A stretch of 64,000 nucleotides of DNA from a phage: NCBI GenBank assembly GCA_009015555.1, contig GCA_009015555.1_3613.1. One strand, 5' to 3'. Below, piece after piece: positions 2,764 to 56,164 of the stretch. Made by a program: the position numbers and the translations under genes. How positions within the stretch are numbered: position 1 is the stretch's first letter; every line of letters starts with the position of its first letter. The notes under the pieces are model-generated. The model made no database searches. It saw only the letters and a list, made by a program, of their open reading frames with translations, and was not told where the DNA came from.

Positions 2764-3218
2764 TCACGTCCATTATTTTTGGACTCTGCTTCGTCATCCT
2801 GGCAACTCGCCCGGATGCCGGGGCCAAGATTATGGCGGGGCTTGGCCTCGCCTATCTTGTTCTCGAAAACCTGATGTTTTGGTTTTTCAGCGGGGCCGAG
2901 TTCTTCGACATCACGCTGTACTTTACCACAGCTTGGGCATTGGATTCAATACTTTTATTTGCCGTGGCACTCTTTGTCCGAGGGTATCGTCAGGTCGCTG
3001 TTTTGGCGCTGGCCCTGCCTCTGATGCTGGTACAAGTATTCGCAATCCAATATCCAATCTTATTCCCCGATTGGGTTTATTCCTTCGCCGTACAGGATGC
3101 ACACAGGTATTTCATCGAGGTGTTTATCTTCGTCTATTCCTGGAAGGACAATACAGTCTCCGAGTGGCTCAGAACAGGAACCGTTCTGGCACTTGTTATT
3201 GTTGCCCATCTGGTGTGA
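2760..3218 (+). CDS. multi-pass membrane protein
   Basis: ATGA overlap with upstream stop; four or more hydrophobic segments. Confidence 0.5.
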   Translation: MITSIIFGLCFVILATRPDAGAKIMAGLGLAYLVLENLMFWFFSGAEFFDITLYFTTAWALDSILLFAVALFVRGYRQVAVLALALPLMLVQVFAIQYPILFPDWVYSFAVQDAHRYFIEVFIFVYSWKDNTVSEWLRTGTVLALVIVAHLV

Positions 3219-3241
3219 CGCATTGATAATGAAGGTGTTCT

Positions 3242-3505
3242 ATGCTAAAATTCTTCAAAGACCTCGTAACTTCCCCCATCGAACCTGACAAGGCTTCCCA
3301 CACGAAGTTCTGGTCAAACGTGGGTATGGCGGCTATGACGGCAGTTTTCCTCTGGTACGGCTTCAACAACACCCTCCCGGAGTGGTATGTTTGGGTTTAT
3401 GCACCCACAGTAGTAGCACCTCACCTTCTGAGTGACCTCATCAATCTTCGTTGGGGTATTGCCAAGAAAGAGTCGGAAGTTTCCAACAACGAAGAATCCA
3501 AATAA
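3242..3505 (+). CDS. small membrane protein (one TM)
   Basis: ORF with a central hydrophobic helix (MAAMTAVFLWYGF), same strand as the fibre genes. Confidence 0.45.
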   Translation: MLKFFKDLVTSPIEPDKASHTKFWSNVGMAAMTAVFLWYGFNNTLPEWYVWVYAPTVVAPHLLSDLINLRWGIAKKESEVSNNEESK

Positions 3506-3517
3506 GAGGAGATTCGC

Positions 3518-6500: not shown

Positions 6501-6742
6501 ATAACGTGACGGTTACCGCCGATACCGTTATCGGTTCCATTGCTCAGTTGCCGGGCGCGGGGACTTACTTCTTCTATATCGAGCAGGATGCTGTTGGGGG
6601 CCACACTGTGACCTTTGACCCAGCTTACCTCAAGATTGGTGATGGAGAAGTGGCTACAGCGCCAAACGCAATCTCTCTGGTCCAAGTAATCTACCGTGGT
6701 AAAGGTTCAATCTTCGACTACGTGATTCTTAACCGAGGTTAA
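3518..6742 (+). CDS. large tail fibre / adhesin with tandem ~30-aa repeats (1074 aa)
   Basis: GTG start after a purine-rich RBS. About 8 copies of TGx(T/S)GVxADVDGxDIxPRSV. Followed by a terminator. Confidence 0.8.
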   Translation: MSSNTDIIALLSSDADKAVDQIIEDSKRLHIVVNGTGTEQAVAEDGSLLPSVRKALIDNLYFKTPPLPWRNGGSVNEFNQLYSFTDVSGNTTWWYAPGATVSNPVVMRDSPINDGKFKVFLDKTNIADIYAPLNSPNFVGNPRVPTPAPGDNSQTVPTTGWVQSEMQDLEDQIIASMKGDFENITVRNDAVLKDTYISGEFIVTSDKLSAASAEATFRRIRVVGTADNTEIAFEQNTAPPAGASTKTNIKPYTMSTGILTIDQLKGKSAQIGDVAVATDSLNVDGYMRGDYLHLEGNNRNSTTRPQLIVDGIAEINTLRVTGTIEGVKADVDGLDIHPRSVIIDEGLTVGKDTSLTGKLTVGGTTKVNNLEVTGTLSGVAISVDGKDIKPRSVNTGNLVATGNVQISGTTTATGKITTQDLEVLGTLTANLDLSGSDLSVDNINVAETATIKDLVVTGKTTGVKGDVDGTLIKPSSVQATGLVSAGSLSTNANASIGGNLTVTGEFRPASMETGAVEADSLVVNGNISQTTGTTSVVNLVVTGTTTGVTADVNGDDILPRSVTTTAGVKVGTTLDVTGKTTLGDVDFTGVVTGLELDLSQKNVTVKSIAAVDPSAFGDVTTDNLTNSEKIITQDIQVLGDILDAAGNPVNTFDVTGKDILPNSVQSATFIRGKTLDISDGSTLRGPVEFRNGLTVTLGDIMSPQGKATFNDVQVNGALTDANGNVIGSVESIKGKDIEPRSVVATVSVQAPRLQSTGDILGQSATITNNVSAGTLGVSGLTNLAETRVNAKLTGQSTEFETLLLKRVAGQDTPRLVVQGDSDLQGDLNVSGTITGIVDLTAQDIRMNSLVLAEDLSARNITGSGTVQGANGIFGQSSQPTTQYGLQSLSSAKVDKNLDVGGNLRVTGAITGSMDFTGKDITPRSVAASAGIGAVDITASGTTTTKDLVVTGTTSFAGDSVFNAGQVKSKLFTVDIGTDITSGSGSWIPDGLQSVYNVTVTADTVIGSIAQLPGAGTYFFYIEQDAVGGHTVTFDPAYLKIGDGEVATAPNAISLVQVIYRGKGSIFDYVILNRG
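4440..6330 (+). repeat. in-frame tandem coding repeats inside the fibre gene
   Basis: Repeated protein motif V(T/D)G(K/D)DI(x)PRSV at irregular spacing; DNA copies are diverged. Confidence 0.6.
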
Positions 6743-6745
6743 TAC

Positions 6746-6771
6746 AGCCGCCTTCGGGCGGCTTTTATTTT
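6746..6771 (+). terminator. rho-independent terminator
   Basis: AGCCGCC-TTCG-GGCGGCT hairpin followed by TTTTATTTT, directly after the fibre stop. Confidence 0.8.
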
Positions 6772-6780
6772 GGAGGTATT

Positions 6781-7977
6781 ATGTTTCCTTTTGCTATTAT
6801 TCCACCGTTTGTTCTTTCAGGCAAGGAAAAAATCAAGCAGTTTTCGGTTACGTCTTACGACAGTATGGTCCTGACTGATAAGGGGAACCTGTATGTTACA
6901 GGATTCAACCGGGTGGGTGAGCTTGGTGTTGGGGACACAACTAACCGAAATAACCAATGGGTTTTGGTAATGCAGGACGTAAACTGGATTGCAAGCAACC
7001 GTGAGAAGCTGTGGGCAATTAAGAACGACGGTTCCATTTACACCCCGGATCTTCGGTCATCCAGTACAACTGCATATACTTGGCAAATCGACACGGTAGC
7101 ACCTGGAAGTATTGGGGATTTGTCTGGGGATAATATCAAGGAGATTTACAGCGACACAGAGAGCGTATATATCCTCAAAAAGGATGGTTCACTGTGGTAT
7201 CTGGGAAATAACTCTAAAGGCCAAGCTGGAAACGGGGGAACTTCCTTAACCACACGCTTTGTGAAGGTTTCAGATGGTGTGGTATCTTGGTCATCCAGTG
7301 GACCCACTGTTGTTTTCGTGAAAACAGACGGATACTTCTGGGGCTGCGGATCAAATTCCCGAAATATCATTTCCTCTGCTGGCAGCAGTATCACAACCCC
7401 TACCCGGATGTTTAGCACCACCCACGCTGACGGAGGTGTTGTAACAGATTACACGCTGGCCTCTGACCAAGCGTTTTTGATCAGATATAGTAATGGTAAA
7501 TATCGTACCAAAGGTCTCAATATCGGACAACTTCCTTCAGGGGATGCAAGTCCATACAATACCCTTACGGACGTTCCTGACGGATACACCCCCGGTGATG
7601 GAACGGAGCCTCTGGTAAGCAAAACAGGAGGGGTGTCGGCCTCTGGAACTTGGCCTAACTATAGTGGTCTTTTCTTCTACCATACGGGAGGGAAATTCAT
7701 AGTCACTGGTCAAGCAAGCGGGAGAATTTCCGGGACCAGCCAAACCAGCGGTACACTCTCAAACTGGACCAATGTCGATGCGGCAAGTGACGAGATCCCA
7801 TCTATCAAGGGAATGACCTTCGGACTGGGTTGGGTTGCTGCCTACAACGATACGCAGATTCTGTACTGGGGGTATACGGGAAACTCCTCTGCATATCCGG
7901 TTGTGGGATACCTAATGCCCGGACCTTCAAGGCTTGAATATGTGGCACGTTTTGCAACCCCGCCGATCGAGGCATAA
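6781..7977 (+). CDS. RCC1-repeat (beta-propeller-like) protein, probably fibre-associated
   Basis: GGAGG RBS. Repeated G-x-N-x-x-G-x-L/A-G-x-G motifs (GFNRVGELGVGD, GNNSKGQAGNGG, GLNIGQLPSGD). Confidence 0.65.
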   Translation: MFPFAIIPPFVLSGKEKIKQFSVTSYDSMVLTDKGNLYVTGFNRVGELGVGDTTNRNNQWVLVMQDVNWIASNREKLWAIKNDGSIYTPDLRSSSTTAYTWQIDTVAPGSIGDLSGDNIKEIYSDTESVYILKKDGSLWYLGNNSKGQAGNGGTSLTTRFVKVSDGVVSWSSSGPTVVFVKTDGYFWGCGSNSRNIISSAGSSITTPTRMFSTTHADGGVVTDYTLASDQAFLIRYSNGKYRTKGLNIGQLPSGDASPYNTLTDVPDGYTPGDGTEPLVSKTGGVSASGTWPNYSGLFFYHTGGKFIVTGQASGRISGTSQTSGTLSNWTNVDAASDEIPSIKGMTFGLGWVAAYNDTQILYWGYTGNSSAYPVVGYLMPGPSRLEYVARFATPPIEA

Positions 7978-8010
7978 TAAAAAGGCACCCTAACGGGTGC
8001 CTTTCTTTTT
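7978..8010. terminator. bidirectional rho-independent terminator between convergent blocks
   Basis: AAAAA-GGCACCC-TAAC-GGGTGCC-TTTCTTTTT: A-tract on one side and T-tract on the other. Confidence 0.8.
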
Positions 8011-8021
8011 ATCATGACAAC

Positions 8022-9254
8022 TTAGAAGGGGATGTCATCGTCGAAATCAACTTCCGGCGGAGTCATGTCGATATGACCGTTGCTGCTTGTCGCAGGAGTC
8101 GATTGTAGAGTCTCCGGTTTAGGGTCCACCTTAGGGTCAGGCTGGGACTGTGCAGTTTGTGCCACAGAGCCACCAGAACTTTGCTCACCCTTGACGTATG
8201 CAGATACGCCCGGGACAACCTCGCTCATGAGACCACGAGCATAAGCCAACAGCTTACCAGTGATCTCTTCTGGATTGTCGTTCTCACCAACCTGGATATC
8301 ACGGGTGGCGTTCAGAACAGCATGGCCCACCATCGCACCCAGATCGTAATCAGACATACCCTTGTTAGCCGGATCATTTGCAGCGTCCAGCTTCAGATGT
8401 TTGGTGACATCATGAACAACCTTGGCTACTTCCACCACCGGAGGGATAGTCAGACCGCTACGACGCAGGTTCAGGGCACCGTTCAGTGCATGGCCCGTTT
8501 CCATACCGGAGTTGTCCTTCTTGAAACCACCTTTGGAACCGCCCGCACCTGCACCAGCAGAACCTTTTGGACCGTAGGCTTTGAAACCTGACAATGTACC
8601 ATCCTCAGCACGTTGCCCTGCCAGGCGACCACCCACCTGAACTTGGGCGATCTGCTCTTTGTTCAGAACCACAGAGACTTCATTACCGTTCTCATCCTTC
8701 ACCACAGCGCCTGTATCGCTCAGGGAGAGGATTTCTCCGTAAACCTTAGTGGTTTTGCCACCTGGGGCGTTGGACGACGCAGAGGACGTCTGAGAGCCTC
8801 CTGCATTGCCTGCCGGGGCGGCATCACGGGCACCGGATTTGTCGGTAATAACGATCTTGGATTTCTTACCCTCCGGGGCAGAGCGTTCGTTGCCGTCACT
8901 ATCAGTCCACTTACGGATCTGGACAGGAACACGAATTGCCATACCCGGCTTCAGGTCAACCCATACTTCGCCTTCTTTTACCTGATACTGGCTTTCGTAT
9001 TTCATGTTCTTCACTTCGTGAGTTCCGAAGCTGATCCACACCTGATCTTCACCGTTTTTAACCAGCAGAGATGCACGGTGAGTGGCAACGATAGTCTTAC
9101 CCTTGTTCGGACCCTTGTTAATGGGGGTAATTTTCGGACTGCCGTCCTCGTTGATGCGTTTAATGTTGATACGTTCGATAGTACCAACAGCCAGGCTTAC
9201 CGTAGAGTTGTCGATCGGGTTAACTACTTCGGTAATTACTTTAACATCAGACAT
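8022..9254 (-). CDS. ssb: single-stranded DNA-binding protein
   Basis: C-terminus DFDDDIPF (bacterial SSB-type acidic tail); Gly/Ser/Ala-rich linker; N-terminal beta-rich region. Confidence 0.75.
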   Translation of the reverse strand: MSDVKVITEVVNPIDNSTVSLAVGTIERINIKRINEDGSPKITPINKGPNKGKTIVATHRASLLVKNGEDQVWISFGTHEVKNMKYESQYQVKEGEVWVDLKPGMAIRVPVQIRKWTDSDGNERSAPEGKKSKIVITDKSGARDAAPAGNAGGSQTSSASSNAPGGKTTKVYGEILSLSDTGAVVKDENGNEVSVVLNKEQIAQVQVGGRLAGQRAEDGTLSGFKAYGPKGSAGAGAGGSKGGFKKDNSGMETGHALNGALNLRRSGLTIPPVVEVAKVVHDVTKHLKLDAANDPANKGMSDYDLGAMVGHAVLNATRDIQVGENDNPEEITGKLLAYARGLMSEVVPGVSAYVKGEQSSGGSVAQTAQSQPDPKVDPKPETLQSTPATSSNGHIDMTPPEVDFDDDIPF

Positions 9255-9339
9255 TCACTTCTCCTTCGAGGATAAACAAGGCCCCAGAATTGAGGCCAGG
9301 ACAACAGGTTACCACATTTACTCAGAATTGCAAGGTGCC

Positions 9340-9525
9340 TTACCAGACACCGAACCAAACGCCGACCCCGTGGATAACACCGACCGGGGCGAAGATAGCA
9401 CCCGCAATCAGGAACAGCCACGACGCAGTTTTGATACACACCACAACGTGGGTGATCCATGCGACGATGGATGCGATTACGATTGCCAGCCAACCCAGAC
9501 CTAAACCTGCCAGTAACTTGTTCAT
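9340..9525 (-). CDS. small membrane protein (two TM)
   Basis: 61-aa ORF, almost entirely hydrophobic. Confidence 0.4.
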   Translation of the reverse strand: MNKLLAGLGLGWLAIVIASIVAWITHVVVCIKTASWLFLIAGAIFAPVGVIHGVGVWFGVW

Positions 9526-9537
9526 TTCCTCTCCTTT

Positions 9538-9915
9538 TTACAAATAGACGCGCTGCACCTCTTTGTCTGCTTGATCAAACATCAAGTTTGCAGCATTAAT
9601 GTCCTTAATCATCTCCTCCGTCATCTGATCCGGGCGCAATGCCCGCAGTGAACGTTTGAAGAGGACTTTCGGATCTTCAGTTACATCTCCCGACACATCG
9701 AACATCTTGATGATCATCTTCACCGGAACCTCACGAGAAATCTGTCCGCCGACGTTGATGGCGTATGTAGCCCCTACTTCAACTTGACGGTGGTCCAGTT
9801 CGTACATCAGATTCAGGTTAACGTATTTGTATTCGTCGCAGCGAGTAATGTTCTTCTGTGCCTGAACACAAACCCAGCCCGGCTCAACAAAAGTGTTATC
9901 GAAAATGCTCATCAT
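9538..9915 (-). CDS. hypothetical protein
   Basis: Track ORF in operon orientation; no motif recognised. Confidence 0.5.
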   Translation of the reverse strand: MMSIFDNTFVEPGWVCVQAQKNITRCDEYKYVNLNLMYELDHRQVEVGATYAINVGGQISREVPVKMIIKMFDVSGDVTEDPKVLFKRSLRALRPDQMTEEMIKDINAANLMFDQADKEVQRVYL

Positions 9916-9967
9916 GTCTTCCTCATCAGTTAATGTTGTGACCAGTATACCTACATTCCCGTAGAAG

Positions 9968-10621
9968 TCAACTTACTTTTGAAATTACCAGTTTTTGAAC
10001 GTAGCCCTGCAACAGGGCGTAAGTTACACCACCCACATAACTACCGCCGACAGAGAGTCTCTCTCCGGCACCGAACCAGTTGGGAACAGAAAAGTTCTGA
10101 ACTTCCCCGCTCACCATATTTCTCACACGGATCTGCCGAGAGTCCGGGTAAGTTTCGATCCGCAGATTAAAAACTTGGCCCTGATTACCATTGATCGAGC
10201 AACGAACATAATTTCCGCTGTTGTCTGTTGGGAACAATTGGTGCCCTCCAACCCCAACCATGCCATAATGCGCCAGTCCGGCGACGATCCTTGTGACGTA
10301 ATCGCCAGAACACCACACCATCTGGGTTGCAGAAGGACTAAGGCTTTGGAAAACAACCTCAATCACCATAGGATCTGTGGATAGATCCACTGAATACTGA
10401 GTTTGGAAATACCCTTGGCCTTGGGCAGGTATGAACTGCATGACCCTTCCAATCCCTGCAACATCGACTATCCTTGGGCCTGTGCCGACCAAAGAGAAGG
10501 TGTGGTTTTCAGACCAGTCCTTCAAAACAGTCTCGCCGAGAGATTGCCGTGTGGCATCCACGTAGAGAATGGCATCCTCTTTGCGAGATGACTTCCCTAT
10601 AATCATTATCTCGTTCATCAA
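9968..10621 (-). CDS. hypothetical protein
   Basis: 217-aa ORF; 4-nt overlap with the downstream gene. Confidence 0.55.
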   Translation of the reverse strand: MMNEIMIIGKSSRKEDAILYVDATRQSLGETVLKDWSENHTFSLVGTGPRIVDVAGIGRVMQFIPAQGQGYFQTQYSVDLSTDPMVIEVVFQSLSPSATQMVWCSGDYVTRIVAGLAHYGMVGVGGHQLFPTDNSGNYVRCSINGNQGQVFNLRIETYPDSRQIRVRNMVSGEVQNFSVPNWFGAGERLSVGGSYVGGVTYALLQGYVQKLVISKVS

Positions 10622-13671: not shown

Positions 13672-14072
13672 CAGTTCCCCTCCAAACGAACATGTGGGTC
13701 AGCAAGATCATCCAACCCGTAATCCCAGAGGTCCATCCCGAAGTGACGAACGCCATCCTCTGGCTCGTAGCCCGGTCGGGTGCATGGAGACACCCAAATA
13801 CCTTCGACATTTGCTTCGATAAGCCCCTCGACACCAATACGGCTGTATGTCAGATAAGGGACCAACACCGGGTCTTTTTCGCCGCAGCCGCAGTCACAGA
13901 CCCATGCTTTTCCTTCCCCGATATACGGAAGTTTCTCTGCCGGGATGAAATTTAACTGTGCCAGAGGGAATCTTTGGATCATCGCCGCCTGGTAGTCCGG
14001 GCCTACCAACCCGGATACGAAAGCATTGACTTCTTCAGATTGCTTCTCAACGAGTTCGCCGTTATTTAGCAT
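13671..14072 (-). CDS. hypothetical Cys-rich protein
   Basis: 133 aa; CDCGCG cluster. Confidence 0.5.
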   Translation of the reverse strand: MLNNGELVEKQSEEVNAFVSGLVGPDYQAAMIQRFPLAQLNFIPAEKLPYIGEGKAWVCDCGCGEKDPVLVPYLTYSRIGVEGLIEANVEGIWVSPCTRPGYEPEDGVRHFGMDLWDYGLDDLADPHVRLEGN

Positions 14073-14409
14073 CCAAAAGCTCCTTCTTGGTTTTGATTTC
14101 CTGATTAACTTTCACGTAAACATCCTTGGCGATCGGCTTGTAACAGCGGTTGTCAGAGAAGATGTACCCGGCCTGTTTGGCTTCGTACTTCTCACACGTT
14201 GCATAGTGACGCTTGTAATCACCGTAGTCCATACGAATGACCAGGGGAGACAAGATGAACCCCCAAAAAATAACCCCAACCCCCACACCTGCCAGTTTAT
14301 ATTTCCATGACTCACCGAGGCCCTGTACAAATCCAAAAAGTGCGCCTGCAATCACGAACACCAGGATAACTTCAGCGTTTTGCATCAAAAACTCAAAGAA
14401 ACCAATCAT
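14062..14409 (-). CDS. membrane protein
   Basis: Three hydrophobic segments. Confidence 0.45.
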   Translation of the reverse strand: MIGFFEFLMQNAEVILVFVIAGALFGFVQGLGESWKYKLAGVGVGVIFWGFILSPLVIRMDYGDYKRHYATCEKYEAKQAGYIFSDNRCYKPIAKDVYVKVNQEIKTKKELLDAK

Positions 14410-14419
14410 CTACTTCTCC

Positions 14420-14641
14420 TTAAAAATCAAACTGTTTAGTTAACTTTTTCATCGTGCCCTGATAAGACGGGTGTAGTTTGTAATTACACCCCTTCTCAAC
14501 ACACCAATCCGAAGCGGGGTTACGAAGCGCCACCAAACCACACCAGGCGCAGACTTGCTTGCCTGCGTGTTTGTCCAGATAGAAGTGGTGACGCTCATAA
14601 TGGTACTCTTCTTTCTGGCCCTTGTCTACCTTTTTCACCAT
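14420..14641 (-). CDS. zinc-ribbon-like small protein
   Basis: CAWCG ... CNYKLH spacing. Confidence 0.45.
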   Translation of the reverse strand: MVKKVDKGQKEEYHYERHHFYLDKHAGKQVCAWCGLVALRNPASDWCVEKGCNYKLHPSYQGTMKKLTKQFDF

Positions 14642-15309
14642 CCGAATTTCTCCGTTGGGAGGTAAACTTGCTGCTGATTACGCAGAACCAGCCGCAGATC
14701 TTTTTGTGGCTCAAGATAGTCAGTCTCGGTCACACGAATAAGGTATCGCCAGCCCGGCGCACGGGCCTGCTGTGCGGTGTGAAGTTCCCACCAGTCCCAT
14801 TCCACCACCTGCCCATCCGGTGCGTCGTAGGTGTCGAGAAGGCCCTTATTGTCCATCTCACAAACCTGACTGGAGATTCCGGCGTACAGGTTCGGGAGGT
14901 TCTCCGTCACGAGGTTGATGTTTCGTGAGGCAATGAACTTCGTCGGGCAATCTCCGCCGACAACCAGCAGGTGGTAACGAGGTGAGTCGGAACCGATCTG
15001 CATGTGGATGTGCGGAGCGCCGGAGGCCGGAGACAGAGACTTCCCGCCACGAGGAACGCCGTCCGTGTGCCAACCAGGGATCGCAGGGATCATACCCGGC
15101 ATTAGCATGTGGGTCTTCACGTCAACCACGATATGCTTTTTGTCGCCACGGATGTTCATCGCTTGCAGGGCGGCGCGGGTCACGTCCCCACCGAAGCGGA
15201 AAGCATCATCGAACGATGCGTTCCACAGGCCCTGTGTGTTCTTGATGTCGTCCTGAGACGGCTTCTCGATCTTATTGCCAAACTGTACTTCGCCACGGTT
15301 AAATTTCAT
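14635..15309 (-). CDS. hypothetical protein, possibly cupin / 2OG-Fe(II)-oxygenase-like
   Basis: H-x-D ... H spacing (WHTDG ... HIHMQ); weak, by eye only. Confidence 0.5.
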   Translation of the reverse strand: MKFNRGEVQFGNKIEKPSQDDIKNTQGLWNASFDDAFRFGGDVTRAALQAMNIRGDKKHIVVDVKTHMLMPGMIPAIPGWHTDGVPRGGKSLSPASGAPHIHMQIGSDSPRYHLLVVGGDCPTKFIASRNINLVTENLPNLYAGISSQVCEMDNKGLLDTYDAPDGQVVEWDWWELHTAQQARAPGWRYLIRVTETDYLEPQKDLRLVLRNQQQVYLPTEKFGW

Positions 15310-15318
15310 TTCGTCACC

Positions 15319-15567
15319 TCATTGATATTGGGCTTTCCAGGTAATTCGTCCGGTCTTGCATACAAACTTGTCTTCAACAACCAAGCCGCTGAAGGCACCG
15401 TCCGGGGCGTTGACCACGGAGTTGACCATCCGCTGCTCCCCAGTCTTTACACATCCGTCCTTGAAGTCTTGGTATTCCTGCATCAGGTAACCAACGAGAC
15501 CAAGTATAATCAAACCGCCGATGAAAGTAAACCACAATTTGAACCAAAAGTTACTATTTTTACGCAT
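15319..15567 (-). CDS. small membrane protein
   Basis: Start re-chosen at MRKNSNFWF..; one TM segment. Confidence 0.4.
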   Translation of the reverse strand: MRKNSNFWFKLWFTFIGGLIILGLVGYLMQEYQDFKDGCVKTGEQRMVNSVVNAPDGAFSGLVVEDKFVCKTGRITWKAQYQ

Positions 15568-15796
15568 CCGAACCCCCGAAGATCTTGTACGCCTTGCTGT
15601 AATCAATGTGCCCTTCCACAACGTGAGTCTCTTTCTTCAGGCACTTGCAGCAGATCCGGTACACATTCGTCTGCTTCGACTCCGGGACAACGTATGCCGG
15701 AGTGTCGTGGTGCCGAGTGACGTGCAGGTTCTGGGTTATTTCCCAAGTGTGGTCGCAGGTACGCTCTTTCTTTCTCTTTTTGCTGAACCAACCCAT
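15560..15796 (-). CDS. Cys-rich small protein
   Basis: CDH ... CCKC pattern. Confidence 0.4.
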   Translation of the reverse strand: MGWFSKKRKKERTCDHTWEITQNLHVTRHHDTPAYVVPESKQTNVYRICCKCLKKETHVVEGHIDYSKAYKIFGGSDA

Positions 15797-15797
15797 C

Positions 15798-16016
15798 TTA
15801 CACCCCCGGTGGTAAAGTTACGCCGCCGACGCTACGGCAGGCTGACAGGTACTGGGCTTGCGCCCGTCCGGCGTGAGCACGAAGCTCCTCATTCTCAATG
15901 TTCTGGCACTCAATGAACTGGAGCATTTCCCACAGTTTGTCGATAAGGACATCTTTCTTCAGGGATTTCCAGTGTTTGCGGAAGGCAACCTCATCTTCAC
16001 TCATCAGTCTTTTCAT
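15798..16016 (-). CDS. hypothetical protein
   Basis: Start re-chosen at an internal ATG abutting the upstream stop. Confidence 0.4.
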   Translation of the reverse strand: MKRLMSEDEVAFRKHWKSLKKDVLIDKLWEMLQFIECQNIENEELRAHAGRAQAQYLSACRSVGGVTLPPGV

Positions 16017-16384
16017 TACATCTTCCTCATTTTCTTGATGTTTTTTGGGGACACGTAAGAGATATTGTTGAAAATCTTCATCTCTTCGGTGGAAACGCAC
16101 ACATTGTCTGTTTCTGCACAGAACGTACTGCCGAGCCACACGTACATGCAGCGCTCATCGCCGATGCCGAAGCATGGCTTGTCCCGGAGGTCACCGAAGA
16201 TAAAGTTTTCATCCTTGTCCATCGGTTTCCCGTCAATAAAGATAATATACCCCTCGTCCTTTAGTTGCTGAATCTCAAAGGCCCGGTCAAAACCCTTCAT
16301 GAAGCGACGGTATGAAGACTTATTCATGAAATCACTTTCGTGGATGATTGCAGAACTTACCTGCGTGATTTTGGTGTTGGTCAT
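16016..16384 (-). CDS. hypothetical protein
   Basis: 122-aa ORF. Confidence 0.5.
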   Translation of the reverse strand: MTNTKITQVSSAIIHESDFMNKSSYRRFMKGFDRAFEIQQLKDEGYIIFIDGKPMDKDENFIFGDLRDKPCFGIGDERCMYVWLGSTFCAETDNVCVSTEEMKIFNNISYVSPKNIKKMRKM

Positions 16385-16452
16385 GTCTTTTCCTCTTTGT
16401 TGTCGATGAGAGGATTATGCGGGAAATCAGGAAGGAAGTCAACAATTTTGTG

Positions 16453-16481
16453 CAAATAAAAAGGCCACCCGAAGGTGGCCT
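16453..16481 (-). terminator. rho-independent terminator (minus strand)
   Basis: On minus strand GGCCACC-TTCG-GGTGGCC followed by TTTTTATTT. Confidence 0.75.
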
Positions 16482-16486
16482 TAATC

Positions 16487-16885
16487 TTATTCAGCGTCCA
16501 GCGCCGCCAGTTCCGCACGAAGCTCTTCTGGGGTCTTGGACTGAACTTCACGCTGCTCGGCTTCCGCCAGGGCGTTGATCAGTTTCTGACGCTGCGCCGC
16601 CTTGTTCTGCGCTGCAACGCGCTCTGCCGCTTCGGTCTCTTTCACGCCGATCACGTGCTTAACGATCTCCAGCTTCAGTTCCAGATCTTTACGCACGGCG
16701 TTTTTGTTCTGGGACAGGAAGGACTCTTCCTTCTCTGCATTGATCTGGCGGTTGATACCCTTCGCCACTTCATCCAGTTGGGTCAGAGACAGATCGAACA
16801 GGTCTTCAGTCGCCAGTGACGCGAAGCGTGGGGAAGCGAAACGGATTTTTGCACGTGCTGCGATTTCAAAGATGTTGGTAGACAT
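16487..16885 (-). CDS. hypothetical coiled-coil protein
   Basis: GAGGAG RBS; own promoter upstream and terminator downstream. Confidence 0.6.
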   Translation of the reverse strand: MSTNIFEIAARAKIRFASPRFASLATEDLFDLSLTQLDEVAKGINRQINAEKEESFLSQNKNAVRKDLELKLEIVKHVIGVKETEAAERVAAQNKAAQRQKLINALAEAEQREVQSKTPEELRAELAALDAE

Positions 16886-16917
16886 TGTATTTCTCCTCAG
16901 TAATTAAGTTCGGGTTC

Positions 16918-16946
16918 ATTATGGGGCCTTTCGGCCCCGCTGTCAA
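16918..16946 (-). promoter_or_regulatory. sigma70-type promoter with GC hairpin in spacer (minus strand)
   Basis: Minus strand TTGACA-gcGGGGCCgaaaGGCCC-CATAAT. Confidence 0.7.
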
Positions 16947-18956
16947 TTAAAAAATCACTTTCAGTGTGCGGGTGAATGCACCAGTCACTTTCACCGTCAG
17001 TTCGTTGCGCTGGGTATCAGAGAAGCCCAGGCCAGACAGTTGTTCGTCAGAGGCCGGAACCTTCATCTTACCTGCCAGATGCTCGAACACTTTACGGTGC
17101 TCGTTCAGTTCGTTACGCAGATACTCGTTGTAGAAACCGCGAGTAGTGCCCGGCTGTTTTGCGCCTTCCAGCATGAAGAAGTAATGCTTGTTACCAATCG
17201 CCTGACCGTCCCAGTGGTTCGGAGAGTTCATGATTACAGACACCTTCTGGAACTGCTCGGTAGCCATTCCCCACACATCTTTAGACTGCTTGCTGTGTGG
17301 CAGTGATTCAATGACCTCCACGCCACCTTTACGGGTGTAACGGAAGGTGATTACATCAACATCGCTACCGCGAGACATCGCCTGTGGACGACTAAACTCC
17401 AGCGTTGTATTGCCATGCTCCAGTTCAAGAGTGAAGCCAACACGGTCACGAGAACGAACATTGTACTGGTTCACCCACACCTTATAAATACCTTCTTCGA
17501 TCTGACTCTCGCGTTCGAAGATGATGTTCTCAACAGGGTTCAGATCATCATGCTTATCCATGCCGTTCATATCCAGGTCCAGATACGCACCGCCACCACG
17601 ACGATTACCGTAATACAGGTGCTCACCGCGAGGGGTACGCATATGCAGGTCAAGGTCATCGCCATTGTTCCACGCCAGAGAGATACGCAGGGCACCCTCC
17701 ACTTTACCACCCGCTGCTTTCACACGCTCTTTAATAGAGTCAGTAACTTCACCATTGTAAGACCAGGAGAAGTTGTTGTCCCACTTCAGCATGTTCGGAG
17801 CGTCCGGATATACCGGGGCCACCAGAGACACCAGGTTGCCAGTGTGGCGGTTCTCAACCAGCGCTTCGATGCTTGTTGCCGTCGGCAGAACTTCACGGAT
17901 GAATTTCTCGATGGAGATCTCTTCCACGTTAGCCGGGCCTTTAACAGGCTTCTTCGCCCCTTTCAGCAGGTCACCGAACACATCTGTGGCCTTCTGGGTG
18001 TTGCGGTCAGCAAACAGCACGTTGTTAACGGTCAGGTCTTCCAGTACAGCGTAGCGGCGAGGCAGAGAGTCCATCAGACCCAGTTGCTGAACCTTCTCCT
18101 GTGCTTTCTTGATCATCGCTTCGGTAACCAGCGCAGTCGGGCGCTTGTAGTTTGCCGGGGCCATAACCTTTTCCCAGCGCTTAACCGCAGATTCGATATC
18201 CATACCGCCGGACAGATCTTCCAGCAGGTTGCCGATCGCAGTATTACGGAACTTACCGCGCTCACCCAGCTTCAGGCCGTTTGTCCACACGAACGCTTCT
18301 TTACCTGCGGTATCCAGAGCATCGTATTTGTTCTTCAGGTCGAGGAACAGGTTGACGCTGGCGATCTGCTCGTTACCACGGTACAGGGAACCCTGTGCGT
18401 TCAGTTCGATGATCGTTTCTGCTGCGTCGGCAGTCAGTTCAATCAGGCTACGCTCCAGAACCTGCACGTTGCTACGAGAGCGGCTCAGGGCAGTTGCGAT
18501 ATCTGAGTTTGGCTTCACGAAGTTCTGCGGCAGAACGGCGTGGAAGTGGTTATACGTCACGACCTGATCGTTTTCCAGAACGTTGCTTTGTGCCGTACCC
18601 ACCTTAGTGGTGAAGTGCAGGAACTCGTCAGCGATCGGTGCTGCATGGATCAGCTTGGACAGCGAGTCAACCACCGCCTGGTAGTAACCCGGCACCTTGA
18701 TGTCCCAGATGGAGACACGCTTACCGTCAACGAAGGTCACCACACGACCAACATCACGGATGAATTGCTTACAGCAGTTGCAGTCGTACTCACGGCGCTC
18801 ACGGAACATCAGGTTGGTGCCCGCCGGGAATGAATCGAGATAATGGTTCCACACGACGTCTTTGTCAGCAGCCACTTCAAACAGGCCAGTTTTAGCCATC
18901 TTGGTCAGTTGTTTCTGGATAGCCAGTACGAAGTTATGATAGTTGTTAGTGCTCAT
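16947..18956 (-). CDS. large hypothetical protein (669 aa)
   Basis: Long uninterrupted ORF; N-terminal CNCC cluster; C-terminal Gly/Asp-rich region (WNNGDDLDLHMRTP ... LDLDMNG). No family recognised. Confidence 0.7.
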   Translation of the reverse strand: MSTNNYHNFVLAIQKQLTKMAKTGLFEVAADKDVVWNHYLDSFPAGTNLMFRERREYDCNCCKQFIRDVGRVVTFVDGKRVSIWDIKVPGYYQAVVDSLSKLIHAAPIADEFLHFTTKVGTAQSNVLENDQVVTYNHFHAVLPQNFVKPNSDIATALSRSRSNVQVLERSLIELTADAAETIIELNAQGSLYRGNEQIASVNLFLDLKNKYDALDTAGKEAFVWTNGLKLGERGKFRNTAIGNLLEDLSGGMDIESAVKRWEKVMAPANYKRPTALVTEAMIKKAQEKVQQLGLMDSLPRRYAVLEDLTVNNVLFADRNTQKATDVFGDLLKGAKKPVKGPANVEEISIEKFIREVLPTATSIEALVENRHTGNLVSLVAPVYPDAPNMLKWDNNFSWSYNGEVTDSIKERVKAAGGKVEGALRISLAWNNGDDLDLHMRTPRGEHLYYGNRRGGGAYLDLDMNGMDKHDDLNPVENIIFERESQIEEGIYKVWVNQYNVRSRDRVGFTLELEHGNTTLEFSRPQAMSRGSDVDVITFRYTRKGGVEVIESLPHSKQSKDVWGMATEQFQKVSVIMNSPNHWDGQAIGNKHYFFMLEGAKQPGTTRGFYNEYLRNELNEHRKVFEHLAGKMKVPASDEQLSGLGFSDTQRNELTVKVTGAFTRTLKVIF

Positions 18957-18989
18957 ATTTGAATCTCCTCAGTGAATGAAATGGGTTGC

Positions 18990-20116: not shown

Positions 20117-20144
20117 ATATTACCAGAATGAATCTGGACGTCAA
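20117..20144 (-). promoter_or_regulatory. sigma70-type promoter (minus strand)
   Basis: Minus strand TTGACG-16-TAATAT followed by GGCCCC. Confidence 0.55.
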
Positions 20145-20159
20145 CACTTTTCTTCAGGT

Positions 20160-20187
20160 AATAAAAAACCGCCCCGAAGGGCGGTTA
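20160..20187 (-). terminator. rho-independent terminator (minus strand)
   Basis: Minus strand AACCGCCC-TTCG-GGGCGGTT followed by TTTTTATT. Confidence 0.75.
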
Positions 20188-20811
20188 TCTTTTCTTGGTT
20201 TCAATCTTGATTGAGCGCATCAAGCACCGGGAATGATACAGAGCTTGGTCTTGAGAACCGCCGATCATGAGATTAAAACTTGTCCCGTCTGCAAGATCTG
20301 GGATGGCTTTGTTGTTTATCGTTGGCGATCCATCAACAGTTACAGTGAGGCTCTTGTTAATAGACTCGAAGATTATCTCGTGATAAACACCTTTTGTCAC
20401 GGCGGGGCCTGCATTGACCCTGCTGGAATTATACCACCAGTCAAGGTATCCGTTACTCAGCATGTTGGCGATCCAAGTGCCAGACCCGTTTCCTTGAATA
20501 GATCTCCCCACAAATATCATTGGGTTTGTTGCCGCTGCCTTAACCTTCAGATTCATGGTGATCTTCCAGTCATTGTTTAGCAGCTTGTCTGGGGTGGTCC
20601 CTCCGCTCAATGCCCCATCTCCAACAAAATCCATCGCTGGCAGGCCCTCGTCGAGAACCGTCGCGGATGTTCCGGCGGTCCTGTTGAACGTTATCCCGCG
20701 ATCAGTGAATCCTGAGAATGTGCCCAAGGGATACTTGGTGAAGTCCAACTCGAACCAAGTGCTGTACTTTTTCGGATCTCCGCCCCCCGGCAGTACCAAC
20801 ATCTCTTGCAT
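20185..20811 (-). CDS. MQEML-family paralog 1; concanavalin-A/LamG-like lectin fold suspected
   Basis: N-terminus MQEMLVLPGGGD shared with three other genes; beta-rich with a LamG-like segment (LTVTVDGSPTINN). Confidence 0.6.
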   Translation of the reverse strand: MQEMLVLPGGGDPKKYSTWFELDFTKYPLGTFSGFTDRGITFNRTAGTSATVLDEGLPAMDFVGDGALSGGTTPDKLLNNDWKITMNLKVKAAATNPMIFVGRSIQGNGSGTWIANMLSNGYLDWWYNSSRVNAGPAVTKGVYHEIIFESINKSLTVTVDGSPTINNKAIPDLADGTSFNLMIGGSQDQALYHSRCLMRSIKIETKKR

Positions 20812-20885: not shown

Positions 20886-23522
20886 TTAGTGACAATCTCC
20901 CCAGCTTGTGCCCGTCAGGTATTCACCTGTGATGTGGACTGGAGATTTCATCATCTTAGCCGCCTGCTCCACGCACTTAACGACCATCTGCCCGACCGGG
21001 CAATGAATAATCGTGTACACGCCGTTCTCGTCCGGATCACACTTGAACTTACCTTCTTTCACACAGTGACCATCCAGAACCAGACCTTTCGCCAGGCACT
21101 GCTCAACAAAGGCTTTTGCGGTTGCCTCGTCGTTGAACTTCCATTCTTTCTTGAACTTGTGCGGCACTTCAAGCTGGTATTCATCGTGGTAGTAGATGAT
21201 ACGGCGGACGCCTTCATCATACCAGCCACGCTTAACCAACTGCCAGTGCAGCAGGATACCGACCAGATCGAACAGTGCAGCACCGCCGTTCTGCTGGTAT
21301 GCGTTCAGCAAGGAGTGTTTGGAGCGGGTGTAGATCTTACGACCATCGAGGCCGTAGATAAAGCGTTTCCCGGTCAACTCCCAGAACTTCTCAAGTGCTT
21401 CTTTACGACCTTTCAGACCGATGTTGCTATCCCAGAATGCGTCGATTACCGCCTGAGCCTTGTCGAGGGAAATACCCAACATGGAGGCGATCTTCGCGGC
21501 CTGGGCACCGTACATGATGCCGTATGTCACACCCTTACCTTCACCACGGGAAACCTTCTTACCCGCCGCTTTGGTATACGCTTCAGCGTTTCGGCTGTGG
21601 GCGTCACCTGATTCCATGATCCGGAGATATGCCCCGCCGTCGAACTCGTAGGCACCCCATGCTGCGATCATACCTTCGAGGTTTGAGCCGTCGATACCAA
21701 CCTGATATTTCCCTTCAGATGCCCGGAATAAGCCACGCATCTCTTTACCCAGTAAAACCTTCTCGTCTGGTTTAGGGACGTTAGCCACGATTGTGTGCTT
21801 ACGTCGCCCGGTGTTGGTGATCCCAGAATAACGCGCCGGGAGTTTACCGTCAATACGCAGTCGTGGGTGGTTCAGCCATCCTGTGTCAACCTTGTCTTCC
21901 TTGAGCGGGTCAAGTACAGAACGACGGTTACGCAGAGACAGCCACTTCACGATCTGCTTTGCCATATGACCGTCAACCTTCTCCAAGTTCGGACACAGGC
22001 CGCTCATATCTTTCAACTGCGGAGACGTAGGCAGGCCACGGGCCTTACGTCGCAACAGCTTGTACATCTTCTCTTTGTCCTGCCACGCCTTCGGGGTGAT
22101 GCCGAGGTATTCCAGAATAAGATCCCGGTATTCAACTTGGTCCAACTGCTCAATGTACTCACGGACAAGCCCATCGACCTCGTTATCGGGGCGTTGTTTC
22201 TTAAACTGGTCCTTCGTCACATCCTTACTGCGCCACAGGGTTGGCTTCCAGCCTGCATCACGGATAAGGAACTTCTTCACGTCATCTTGGTTACCGATAC
22301 GCATCGGAATCATAATGTCCGGCATGGTTTGGTTCTTCAGATCCAACATTGCCCGTGCCATGTCCTCTGGTGAGAGAGGGATCAGGGTCGTTTGCTTGTT
22401 GTTCTGGTCCCGGATAAACTGCGGCATCGCTGCCTCATCCTCGACACCATGCTCATTGCAATACTTGATTGCTGCCGCCGTCAGGCTACCATCGGCCTTG
22501 AAAGACTTCGCCGGGGGACCCTTAAAGTCGAGTGCCTCCCAGTTGACATTATACCCCAACTTCTCCAGCCACTTCCACCCAGTCCCGGACAAAGATCCAT
22601 CGCCCTTGAACGGCTTAGAAGGGAAGGTCGGTTGTGCTGACTTCGCCATCTCTTTCTTCGGGAGATGGGGTTCAACATCTCCCTCGATCTCTCGCATCAT
22701 TTGATCGATACGGTCACGAAGTTTAAGTGCCGCCTCTTCGTCGAAAGATACGCCCTGAATCTCCTGCTCAATCATCAGGTAGTCTGTCAGCATACCACGA
22801 CGCATGGCATTCTTCCAGTTGATCAGCTTGTACTTCTTGGCGTCCTTATCCTTATCTTCATCCTTGTACATGAAGCGTTTGTCATCTACCAGCTTGCCGT
22901 CGCAGGCGATCTCCTCCATGAGGGCCGTCCACACCATTTCGTTGATGATAACGTCTTCGATGATACGATCACAATACTTCCACAGCGGCAGGCCACGCCA
23001 GTCTTCGATTGCCACTTTCTGGTTGGCAACACGCATACCCCACGCCTCTAAGCCGTGAGGGCCGACAGGTTTCATCTTCCCGGTGACCGGGTTCTTTACC
23101 ATCTCCGGACACCCACGAGGAAGCGGTCGGTCTGGATAAAGAGTTCGAGACATTGACAGAGTGTCGAACAGGTTAACCTGCTTGCCGTTCAGGGTGCCCA
23201 TGCACTTAGGGTCGCCGAACATATCATACTGTGTTCCCAACATCTTTTTAAACAGACGAAGGTCGTAGCCGAACAGGTTGTGGATCGCGATGGATTTAGG
23301 CTCCGTCTTGAACCAATCGTTCAACTCCTCAAAGGTACGAATTTTGAAATTCTTGCCCTTCGATTGGATAAATTTCAACGCCTGATCGTACCCTTCCCGG
23401 TTGGGGTCGAGGAAGATATTCCAGTTATCGACCTTATACTCCTTGAACAGGATCACGTGAAGCTGGTCTACTTCTTCGAGCAGACCATTGGCTTCAGCAT
23501 CCCCTACAAACAACCCTTTCAT
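20886..23522 (-). CDS. family-A DNA polymerase with 3'-5' exonuclease domain
   Basis: Exo motif FVGDAEANG; motif A IDGSNLEGM; motif B R...KGVTYGIMYGA; motif C YYHDEYQLE. AGGAGA RBS before ATG at 23522. Confidence 0.9.
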   Translation of the reverse strand: MKGLFVGDAEANGLLEEVDQLHVILFKEYKVDNWNIFLDPNREGYDQALKFIQSKGKNFKIRTFEELNDWFKTEPKSIAIHNLFGYDLRLFKKMLGTQYDMFGDPKCMGTLNGKQVNLFDTLSMSRTLYPDRPLPRGCPEMVKNPVTGKMKPVGPHGLEAWGMRVANQKVAIEDWRGLPLWKYCDRIIEDVIINEMVWTALMEEIACDGKLVDDKRFMYKDEDKDKDAKKYKLINWKNAMRRGMLTDYLMIEQEIQGVSFDEEAALKLRDRIDQMMREIEGDVEPHLPKKEMAKSAQPTFPSKPFKGDGSLSGTGWKWLEKLGYNVNWEALDFKGPPAKSFKADGSLTAAAIKYCNEHGVEDEAAMPQFIRDQNNKQTTLIPLSPEDMARAMLDLKNQTMPDIMIPMRIGNQDDVKKFLIRDAGWKPTLWRSKDVTKDQFKKQRPDNEVDGLVREYIEQLDQVEYRDLILEYLGITPKAWQDKEKMYKLLRRKARGLPTSPQLKDMSGLCPNLEKVDGHMAKQIVKWLSLRNRRSVLDPLKEDKVDTGWLNHPRLRIDGKLPARYSGITNTGRRKHTIVANVPKPDEKVLLGKEMRGLFRASEGKYQVGIDGSNLEGMIAAWGAYEFDGGAYLRIMESGDAHSRNAEAYTKAAGKKVSRGEGKGVTYGIMYGAQAAKIASMLGISLDKAQAVIDAFWDSNIGLKGRKEALEKFWELTGKRFIYGLDGRKIYTRSKHSLLNAYQQNGGAALFDLVGILLHWQLVKRGWYDEGVRRIIYYHDEYQLEVPHKFKKEWKFNDEATAKAFVEQCLAKGLVLDGHCVKEGKFKCDPDENGVYTIIHCPVGQMVVKCVEQAAKMMKSPVHITGEYLTGTSWGDCH

Positions 23523-23611
23523 ACTCTCTCCTTTTTGGCATACCTCCACTCAGGATAGCCCAATGCCTCGTAAAGATCAACCTATCAATACCCGTCCTTG
23601 GGTGAATAATC

Positions 23612-55895: not shown

Positions 55896-56164
55896 ATAGC
55901 GGGCACCCCCGGTGATTGTCTCCGGGTCATTTCTCCCCGCTATGTGTATAATATAGCCCAACCCCGGCCCGGTTGCAAGCGTCTTTACAGTTCTTTACAA
56001 AACTATTTTGGACGAACTACCGGCGATCCACCTTCCGACCTGGCCCCGGTGCCCGGTACGTTAGCCCCGCCTTTTCGCCGTGGGGTGGCGTCTCCTCTCC
56101 TGTATGTGTACATTATGGACTAGCCCCGCCGGGCCGTCAATACCAAAACGAAAATAAATTTTTC

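What the first reader, a model, noticed from the sequence alone, without database searches (positions are those of the whole stretch)
16918..18956. Orphan 669-aa protein, the largest unknown in the leftward block
Apart from the polymerase and primase this is the largest gene of the leftward block, yet it carries no motif I can place: an N-terminal CNCC cluster and a C-terminal Gly/Asp-rich region. A hairpin promoter lies just downstream of its stop. A protein of this size in the replication/early region is likely enzymatic.
Basis: seen in the sequence. Interest (0 to 1): 0.45.

Follow-up and report, generated by a model that had tools for sequence, protein, structure and literature searches.

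The report
Widespread unknown-function phage gene pair
The 669-aa gene is real but is not an orphan: it belongs to a very large, uncharacterised protein family (Pfam DUF8224) found in hundreds of phages and many bacteria. It always travels with the small gene just downstream, and its biochemical function is still unknown.

Summary
The ORF (16947..18956, minus strand, 669 aa), its CNCC motif, its Gly/Asp-rich stretch and the hairpin-containing promoter after its stop are all confirmed. The window is a Certrevirus (CR3-like, rV5-related myovirus), not an N4-like phage.

The protein is not an orphan. It is a long-form member of Pfam DUF8224 / PHROG 1735, with 9,589 clusters in the 50%-identity library, 553 deposited phage genomes, and bacterial chromosomes. 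It is annotated "hypothetical" almost everywhere.

New here:
- The downstream 132-aa gene (16487..16885) is an obligate partner. It is present in 111/111 long-form loci and absent from all 8 short-form loci, which also lack the TerD-like insertion.
- The pair sits in replication/repair/nucleotide-metabolism modules.

My best guess, at low confidence, is a two-protein complex that binds metal and a phosphate-bearing substrate and acts on nucleic acids or nucleotides. "Serine protease" and PARP-like readings were tested and rejected. Interest is moderate.

The parts
16947..18956 (-). Long-form DUF8224 gene (669 aa, equivalent to CR3_gp055), stop codon included
   Evidence: ORF. PHROG 1735 over the full length, E 4.5e-289. 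The precomputed Pfam tag PF26675 = DUF8224 is carried by 99%-identical proteins. AF2 model has mean pLDDT 82.
18965..18970 (-). Shine-Dalgarno GAGGAG of the 669-aa gene
   Evidence: Read directly from the sequence.
18513..18956 (-). Domain D1 (aa 1-148), alpha/beta. Holds the conserved C59-x2-C62 knuckle at a helix N-terminus and invariant H137, a putative metal site
   Evidence: Secondary structure. C59, C62 and H137 are 99-100% conserved in 72 long and 49 short forms. Metal binding is inferred, not shown.
18771..18782 (-). Only C59 and C62 are conserved
18072..18512 (-). Domain D2 (aa 149-295), helical bundle ending in the conserved (N/K)-Y270-x-R272-P-T motif
17754..18071 (-). Domain D3 (aa 296-401), alpha/beta with a disordered loop at 320-343. 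Holds the conserved R300-R301-x-A303 motif
17289..17753 (-). Inserted TerD-like beta-sandwich (aa ~402-556) with an invariant acidic cluster: D434, D436, D460, D462, E476, N477.
16950..17288 (-). Domain D5 (aa 557-669), alpha/beta. Part of the conserved core, with E611, R621 and E625
   Evidence: Short forms match HMM positions 561-667. Conservation.
16918..16946 (-). Sigma-70-like promoter: TTGACA, 17 nt, CATAAT. Its spacer is a 6-bp GC hairpin with a GAAA loop (stem 16923-16928 / 16933-16938). It lies between the two genes of the pair
   Evidence: Activity as a promoter is inferred from the consensus match and the recurrence of the motif.
16487..16885 (-). Obligate partner gene (132 aa, equivalent to CR3_gp054, PHROG 2018). 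It has a conserved N-terminal ~35-aa motif (F-E-x-A-x-R-x-K-L-R-F ... E-D-L-W-D-L-P-L) followed by a long charged helix. Its own GAGGAG lies at 16893..16898
   Evidence: The partner HMM scores at least 82 bits in 111/111 long-form loci, always on the same strand and directly downstream, and gives E > 1 in 8/8 short-form loci. The partner is found in 396 phage records.
16461..16482 (.). Bidirectional intrinsic-terminator-like hairpin immediately after the partner gene. It probably marks the end of the transcription unit
   Evidence: 9-bp stem followed by a T-run on the minus strand.
20117..20186 (-). Upstream terminator-like hairpin (20167-20186) followed by a promoter-like site with an extended -10 (20117-20144). 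This is the likely start of the unit that runs through five small ORFs into the pair
   Evidence: Consensus matches only; the transcription-unit boundaries are inferred.

Best explanation
The gene encodes a long-form member of the uncharacterised family DUF8224 (PF26675; PHROG 1735). It is a non-structural protein of the phage replication/repair/nucleotide-metabolism gene block.

Shown:
- The family has a conserved core made of D1, D2, D3 and D5.
- In long forms, a TerD-like beta-sandwich with an invariant acidic cluster is inserted between D3 and D5.
- Every long form is followed by a ~130-aa partner gene. No short form has that partner.
- The pair also occurs on its own in ordinary bacterial chromosome.

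Inferred:
- The two proteins form a complex in which the partner docks on, or is controlled by, the TerD-like insertion.
- The insertion binds Ca2+ or a small ligand, as TerD does.
- The core carries a Cys-x2-Cys...His metal site plus an Arg/Tyr/Glu-rich pocket (Y270, R272, R300, R301, E611, R621, E625). This pocket binds a phosphate-bearing substrate, most likely a nucleic-acid end or a nucleotide, and either processes it or presents it to neighbouring repair or replication enzymes.

The exact reaction is unknown.
For: Identity:
- PHROG 1735, E 4.5e-289.
- PF26675 = DUF8224 on all homologues.

Spread and constraint:
- 9,589 representatives at the 50% level, 2,237 of them below 1e-30.
- 553 phage records from unrelated lineages.
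- 33 loci in cellular genome assemblies.
- 21 invariant residues across 72 sequences that are ~40% identical.

Architecture:
- AF2 models with pLDDT 82 and 88.7.
- Short forms match HMM positions 17-397 and 561-667 only and lack window aa 402-556.
- TerD fold for the insertion.

Partner:
- 109/109 long-form loci by HMM, same strand, directly downstream.
- At least 82 bits in 111 long-form loci, against E > 1 in 8 short-form loci.

Self-contained unit:
- Chromosomal copies lie among a bicarbonate transporter and alpha-2-macroglobulin, or among kinases and HflX.

Context:
- DNA polymerase in the window.
- Clamp loader, 5-hmdU DNA kinase, ATP-dependent ligase, DnaB, UvrD.
- RtcB directly upstream in two independent cases, L011 and L121.
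- PNK plus ligase directly downstream in Xoo-sp2.

Candidate site residues conserved in both forms are listed. TerD domains are viewed as ligand- or metal-binding sensors (PMC7824862).
Against: - The TerD similarity is fold-level only. hhalign probability is below 1%, and the canonical TerD calcium motif is not present as such.
- A physical complex is inferred from gene linkage alone. No partner fusion exists among ~340 family proteins, and no multimer prediction could be run.
- Apart from the partner, no neighbour is universal: NAD-salvage genes in ~16, ligases in 10 and RtcB in 2 of ~120 loci. The nucleic-acid link may therefore only reflect residence in a general early or metabolic gene block.
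- Metal binding by C59/C62/H137 is untested. One relative (Erwinia phage Hena1) lacks the cysteines.
Confidence: 0.35

Rival explanations
1. Counter-defence or host-takeover factor without catalysis. The pair would sense or sequester a host signal, such as a nucleotide-derived second messenger or Ca2+, through the TerD-like domain, or would bind and block a host defence protein.
For: TerD domains are regarded as ligand sensors in Ter systems, which are themselves linked to phage exclusion (PMC7824862). NAD-salvage genes of the kind phages use against NAD-depleting immunity lie within 6-8 kb in ~16 loci, directly adjacent in phage B1VFA. The gene sits among many small early-type ORFs.
Against: The family is unusually well conserved: ~40% identity across unrelated phage families, with invariant residues. 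It also occurs as a single chromosomal gene or pair in non-mobile contexts, which is atypical for fast-evolving, patchy anti-defence genes. Short forms have no TerD-like domain at all. There are no PADLOC hits.
Confidence: 0.2
2. Non-enzymatic replication or recombination accessory protein, such as a loader, scaffold or DNA-end binding factor, that works with the phage replisome.
Confidence: 0.15
3. NAD-dependent ADP-ribosyltransferase related to PARPs, that is, a helical regulatory domain followed by an ART domain.
For: One of 72 family members hit Pfam PARP_reg at E 5.9e-5. An ADP-ribosylglycohydrolase is a divergent neighbour of one short form. NUDIX and NAD-salvage genes lie nearby in several loci.
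Confidence: 0.04
4. Subtilisin-like serine protease, as annotated for the orthologue in Pectobacterium phage PcCB7V.
Confidence: 0.02
5. Virion structural protein.
For: The protein is large, and a neighbouring 208-aa ORF carries a PHROG 'tail' label.
Against: The gene lies in the replication block on the strand opposite the structural genes. It occurs as an isolated gene or pair in bacterial chromosomes. It occurs in phages of very different morphologies (myo-, sipho- and podovirus-type lineages), which share no structural genes.
Confidence: 0.03

Closest known systems
Pfam DUF8224 (PF26675) / PHROG 1735: uncharacterised family of phages and bacteria
   Same: Full-length, very strong match. 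The architecture is the same as in hundreds of phage orthologues, for example CR3_gp055 (99% identical) and phiMAM1 gp084 (53%).
   Different: Nothing distinguishes the window's copy from the family. The family itself has no assigned function or solved structure. Three things do not appear in the annotations or papers I could search: the split into long and short forms, the TerD-like insertion, and the obligate partner.
TerD family (PF02342), e.g. Klebsiella TerD (PDB 2kxt) and Streptomyces SCO6318 (2qz7) / SAV2460 (2qng): Ca2+-binding beta-sandwich proteins of tellurite-resistance (Ter) systems
   Different: ~11% identity. There is no significant sequence or profile match. The canonical GDN(R/L)TG(E/A)GDGDDE motif is absent. 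Here the domain is inserted into a larger unrelated protein rather than standing alone. No Ter operon genes are nearby.
Phage RNA/DNA end-healing and sealing sets (RtcB; Pnk + ligase) and NAD-salvage cassettes (Nampt + Nmnat/Nudix)
   Same: DUF8224 genes are directly flanked by RtcB (L011, L121), by PNK plus ligase (Xoo-sp2), or by Nampt plus Nmnat/Nudix (B1VFA). They share the same genomic module in many phages.
   Different: This is association by neighbourhood only and is not universal (2, 1 and ~16 of ~120 loci). There is no sequence or fold similarity to any of these enzymes. The window itself encodes none of them.
PARP regulatory (HD) domain, PF02877
   Same: A helical domain lies upstream of an alpha/beta domain. 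One family member gave a sub-threshold-looking Pfam hit.

Membership tests
Pfam DUF8224 (PF26675) | Significant match to the family model | tested here: met
   The test is indirect. The local Pfam copy lacks this model and returned 0 families. The precomputed tag PF26675.1 is present on all 120 listed homologues, including 99%-identical P0001-P0004, and on P0003 in its genome, where it is named DUF8224. Short forms carry it too.
PHROG 1735 | Full-length match to the PHROG profile | tested here: met
   E 4.5e-289. Residues 4-669 align to profile positions 2-673 of 673.
DUF8224 long-form subgroup (defined here) | Beta-sandwich insertion between D3 and D5, plus a ~130-aa partner gene directly downstream | tested here: met
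   The insertion at aa 402-556 is present. The partner at 16487..16885 is homologous to the partners of 19 cellular loci, with blastp E down to 5e-26, and to PHROG 2018, E 1.5e-41.
TerD family (PF02342) | TerD-type beta-sandwich fold | tested here: met
TerD family (PF02342) | Significant sequence or profile similarity to TerD proteins | tested here: not met
   No Pfam hit at E <= 1 for the query or for 72 relatives. hhalign of the domain alignment against four PDB TerD-family sequences gives probability 0.2-0.9%.
TerD family (PF02342) | Calcium-binding motif GDN(R/L)TG(E/A)GDGDDE (motif recalled from the 2kxt paper, my own knowledge) | tested here: inconclusive
TerD family (PF02342) | Ter operon context (TerZ/A/B/C/E/F, TelA) | tested here: not met
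   None of the neighbours scanned in the window or in related loci is a Ter component.
PARP-like ADP-ribosyltransferases | PARP_reg helical domain and ART catalytic fold with the H-Y-E triad | tested here: not met
Subtilisin-like serine proteases (Peptidase_S8) | S8 catalytic domain with the Asp-His-Ser triad | tested here: not met
Known anti-phage defence components (PADLOC-DB) | Match to any defence-system protein model | tested here: not met
   0 families at E <= 1.

The most novel reading that the evidence does not exclude
The DUF8224 core is a previously unseen protein fold with a new metal-dependent activity on nucleic-acid ends or nucleotides. Together with its obligate ~130-aa partner and the Ca2+/ligand-sensing TerD-like insertion, the long form would be a new, regulated two-component system shared by hundreds of large virulent phages and many bacteria. 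It could be, for example, a repair or anti-damage module that works alongside RtcB, ligases and NAD-salvage genes.
Probability: 0.3. Interest if true: 0.7.

Novelty: new member of a known kind. Interest (0 to 1): 0.4.

Why it matters
DUF8224 is one of the larger conserved "dark matter" families of big virulent phages, including therapeutic candidates in Ackermannviridae and Vequintavirinae, and it also lives in bacterial chromosomes.

This work shows three things that turn an anonymous "hypothetical protein" into a defined target:
- It is a strictly paired two-gene unit.
- The partner tracks a TerD-like insertion.
- The core has no solved structural relative.

That gives a complex to co-express, a short list of residues to mutate, and natural short-form controls.

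For this particular window the practical lesson is more modest. The gene is an ordinary, already catalogued member of that family. It is not an orphan, and the stray "serine protease" label on an orthologue should not be propagated.

Tried and rejected
1. Pfam, NCBIfam, PADLOC and PDB sequence searches with the protein and with two family profiles gave nothing.

3. TerD homology at sequence level: hhalign in local and global modes was not significant. By eye, the motifs h-x-h-x-W, D-L-D and (F/Y)-(Y/F)-x-N appear in the same order as in TerD. This is not statistically supported, so I do not claim it.

4. PARP/ART lead from one Pfam PARP_reg hit:
   - The hit is not in the 10 longest members.
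   - phmmer, hmmsearch and hhalign against PARP1 were all negative.
   - The lead is rejected.

5. My early recollection that the Gly/Asp region resembles DUF2135: only 2 of 72 members touch it, at E 0.055. Not supported.

6. The HUH-nuclease idea from 'H-F-H' at residues 137-139: the second His is not conserved. Rejected.

7. Partner protein: no Pfam, PDB or consistent weak hits, and no fusions to the large protein.

8. Literature searches for PF26675, DUF8224, PHROG ids and TerD-like phage proteins found no paper on this family.

9. The search for a third universal neighbour found none.
Full report
**1. The observation**

The window holds an ATG-initiated ORF of 669 codons at 16947..18956 on the minus strand. 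A GAGGAG ribosome-binding site lies 8 nt upstream of the start.

The finding's lower coordinate (16918) is not part of the gene. It is the end of a promoter-like element that begins directly after the stop codon. That element consists of TTGACA (16941-16946), a 17-nt spacer containing a GGGGCC-GAAA-GGCCCC hairpin (-14.8 kcal/mol), and CATAAT at 16918-16923.

'CNCC' is residues 59-62. The 'Gly/Asp-rich' stretch is residues ~430-477. The ORF is the third largest of the leftward block, after the DNA polymerase (887 aa) and a DnaB-like protein (690 aa).

**2. Where the window comes from**

The region is 98% identical at the DNA level to Cronobacter phages CR3, CR8 and PBES 02, and 97% identical to Pectobacterium phage PcCB7V. 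These belong to genus Certrevirus, subfamily Vequintavirinae, which are rV5-related myoviruses of ~149 kb.

It is not an N4-like phage. The 'hairpin promoter' is therefore a sigma-70-type promoter with a stem-loop in its spacer, not an N4 virion-RNA-polymerase promoter. The motif recurs: 16 matches in the window against 1.29 expected, clustered at 56-63 kb on the plus strand.

**3. The gene is not an orphan**

The protein matches PHROG 1735 ('unknown function') end to end, E 4.5e-289.

- The 90%-clustered database gives more than 4,596 hits.
- An exhaustive profile search of the 50%-clustered library gives 9,589 representatives at E <= 1e-3, with 2,237 below 1e-30. Nearly all are ~660-690 aa and align over the full length.
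- tblastn finds the gene in 553 deposited phage genomes. These include Ackermannviridae, Vequintavirinae, Caulobacter phiCbK-like phages, jumbo phages phiRSL1 and PaBG, Bacillus BCP78-like phages, N4-like Pokken, a Microcystis phage and Cellulophaga phages.
- The annotation is 'hypothetical protein' almost everywhere, with stray labels such as 'serine protease' and 'coil containing protein'.

All homologues carry the precomputed Pfam tag PF26675, whose name is DUF8224. My local Pfam copy lacks that model, which explains its empty result. No paper in the searchable library mentions PF26675, DUF8224 or the PHROG ids.

**4. No known family by sequence**

NCBIfam, PADLOC and PDB sequence searches found nothing credible. 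This holds for the single protein and for profiles of 32 and 72 sequences.

**5. Structure**

An AF2 model of the window protein (mean pLDDT 82, pTM 0.50) shows five units:

| Unit | Residues | Type |
|---|---|---|
| D1 | 1-148 | alpha/beta |
| D2 | 149-295 | helical |
| D3 | 296-401 | alpha/beta |
| D4 | ~402-556 | beta-sandwich |
| D5 | 557-669 | alpha/beta |

At sequence level the link is not demonstrable. hhalign probability is below 1%, and no TerD Pfam hit appears in the query or in 72 relatives. I therefore call D4 TerD-like, not a TerD family member.

**6. Long and short forms**

Some phages (Xanthomonas Xoo-sp2 and Xp12, Pseudomonas PaBG, Serratia Moabite) and some bacteria (Nocardia) encode ~540-aa relatives. 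These align to profile positions 17-397 and 561-667 and lack the segment between. In a joint alignment they lack window residues 402-556. The TerD-like sandwich is therefore an insertion into a conserved core made of D1-D3 plus D5.

**7. Conserved residues**

Thirty positions are at least 90% conserved in both the 72 long and the 49 short forms. The polar ones fall into two groups:

- C59, C62 and H137.
- Y270, R272, R300, R301, N394, E611, R621 and E625.

The CxxC lies at the N-terminus of a helix, which together with a distant His is a common zinc-knuckle arrangement. That reading is an inference.

The Arg/Tyr/Glu set is what one expects of a site that binds phosphate. The long-form insertion adds an invariant acidic cluster: D434, D436, D460, D462, E476 and N477.

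**8. The partner**

Clustering the flanking ORFs of 33 cellular loci and 80 viral loci showed one consistent neighbour: a ~130-aa protein directly downstream on the same strand. The window's 132-aa ORF at 16487..16885 is its homologue (blastp E down to 5e-26; PHROG 2018, 'unknown function').

- An HMM of the partner finds it in 109 of 109 loci with a called large gene.
- The lowest best score among 111 long-form loci is 82 bits, whereas all 8 short-form loci give E > 1.
- In deposited phages the partner is found in 396 records and is adjacent wherever coordinates can be compared.

The partner has no Pfam family and no PDB relative. It consists of a conserved N-terminal motif followed by a long charged helix. 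No fusion of the two proteins was found.

The strict co-variation of the partner with the insertion is the strongest functional clue obtained. It suggests, but does not prove, that the partner binds or is regulated through the TerD-like domain.

**9. Context**

In the window the pair closes a probable transcription unit. The unit starts after a terminator/promoter pair near 20117-20186, runs through five small ORFs, and ends at a bidirectional terminator at 16461-16482. The hairpin promoter sits between the two genes.

Across lineages the pair lies beside replication, repair and nucleotide-metabolism genes:

- DNA polymerase in Certrevirus.
- Clamp loader and 5-hmdU DNA kinase in Ackermannviridae.
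- ATP-dependent ligase, DnaB and UvrD.
- RtcB directly upstream in a Bradyrhizobium locus and in Rhizobium phage B1VFA.
- PNK plus ligase directly downstream in Xoo-sp2.
- NAD-salvage genes in ~16 of ~120 loci.

None of these is universal, and the window itself has none of RtcB, ligase, PNK or NAD-salvage genes.

Chromosomal copies sit in ordinary chromosome. Long forms with the partner occur in a 3.5-Mb Sericytochromatia contig and in Paraliomyxa, and short forms occur in Nocardia. The unit therefore works without phage-specific components.

**10. Leads tested and dropped**

One of 72 members hit Pfam PARP_reg at E 5.9e-5. An ADP-ribosylglycohydrolase neighbours one short form. Against this:

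- The family profiles show no similarity to PARP1.
- Neither model resembles any ART structure.

I reject the ADP-ribosyltransferase reading. DUF2135 (2 of 72 members, E 0.055) and an HUH motif (second His not conserved) were also dropped.

**11. What it most likely is**

With high confidence (~0.95), this is a long-form DUF8224 protein that works as a unit with the downstream 132-aa protein. It is a non-structural product of the replication/repair gene block.

With low confidence (~0.3), the two proteins form a complex. In that complex the core binds metal and a phosphate-bearing substrate, and acts on nucleic-acid ends or nucleotides. The TerD-like insertion serves as a Ca2+/ligand-binding and partner-docking module. 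TerD domains are viewed as ligand sensors in Ter systems (PMC7824862).

The rivals are a non-catalytic counter-defence sensor or sponge (0.2), a replication accessory scaffold (0.15), a PARP-like enzyme (0.04), a protease (0.02) and a virion protein (0.03).

**12. Verdict**

'Orphan' is wrong. 'No known motif' and 'not a known enzyme family' hold. 'Enzymatic' remains open.

The gene is an already catalogued member of a large family of unknown function, so novelty for this window is low.

The family itself is a worthwhile target. It is widespread and highly constrained, it forms an obligate two-gene unit, and its core has no structural relative.

Noticed in passing
window 16918-16946 (-); also 56564, 57102, 58144, 60966, 62718, 62992 (+), and weaker copies at 56112 (-), 57813 and 60449 (+): Recurrent sigma-70-like promoters: TTGAC(A/G/C), a 17-18 nt spacer, then (C)ATAAT. 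The spacer is a 6-bp GC-rich hairpin. There are 16 matches against 1.3 expected. Different copies use different but still complementary stems (GGGGCC/GGCCCC against CGGCCC/GGGCCG), so the hairpin itself appears to be under selection. No T-run follows, so these are not intrinsic terminators. The cluster at 56-63 kb looks like a divergent early region.
   Followed up: partly
window 16487-16885 (-), and the window as a whole: The exact 132-aa partner sequence equals KAB3178490.1, and the large protein's 90% cluster contains KAB3178491.1. Both are labelled Escherichia coli and lie on a 149,946-bp contig. The window therefore probably comes from a complete Certrevirus genome deposited inside an 'E. 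coli' assembly.
   Followed up: partly
window 20185-20811 (-): A 208-aa protein with a concanavalin-A-like/Laminin_G_3 domain (Pfam E 1.7e-6) carries a PHROG 'major tail protein' label. It sits between the DNA polymerase and the small-ORF run, on the replication strand, which is an odd place for a tail protein. In P7_Pc a 'putative restriction endonuclease' is annotated at the equivalent position.
   Followed up: no
L001 (PcCB7V) 3111-4856, compared with window ~14000-16400: PcCB7V carries NMN adenylyltransferase and a PnuC nicotinamide-riboside transporter 1-2 kb downstream of the pair. The window has no detectable NMNAT, NAMPT, RtcB, ligase or PNK anywhere in its 64 kb. This looks like cassette-level variation between 97%-identical phages.
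   Followed up: partly
L121 (Rhizobium phage B1VFA) 4500-10377: A compact run of RtcB, short-form DUF8224, a 62-aa ORF, an NMNAT/NUDIX fusion and NAMPT, with Band_7 and a second NUDIX a little further on. This puts RNA-repair and NAD-reconstitution genes on either side of a DUF8224 gene.
   Followed up: partly
L008 and L024 (Bradyrhizobium) 2684-10019: A tightly packed same-strand run upstream of the long-form DUF8224 gene: a 542-aa unknown, a 334-aa M28-peptidase-like protein, a 712-aa GHKL-ATPase protein and a 154-aa unknown. A UvrD-like helicase lies downstream. This could be a larger island-specific system.
   Followed up: no
L124 (PBES 02) 2761-5615, compared with window 20886-23549: In PBES 02 the DNA polymerase gene is called at 781 aa and is preceded by an HNH_3 endonuclease ORF. 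The window's polymerase ORF is 887 aa with no HNH ORF there. This suggests a homing-endonuclease insertion polymorphism at the polymerase locus.
   Followed up: no
window 16461-16482 and 20167-20186: Two bidirectional terminator-like hairpins (stems of 9 and 8 bp, with T-runs on the minus strand) bracket a ~3.7-kb unit that holds five small ORFs plus the DUF8224 pair.
   Followed up: no
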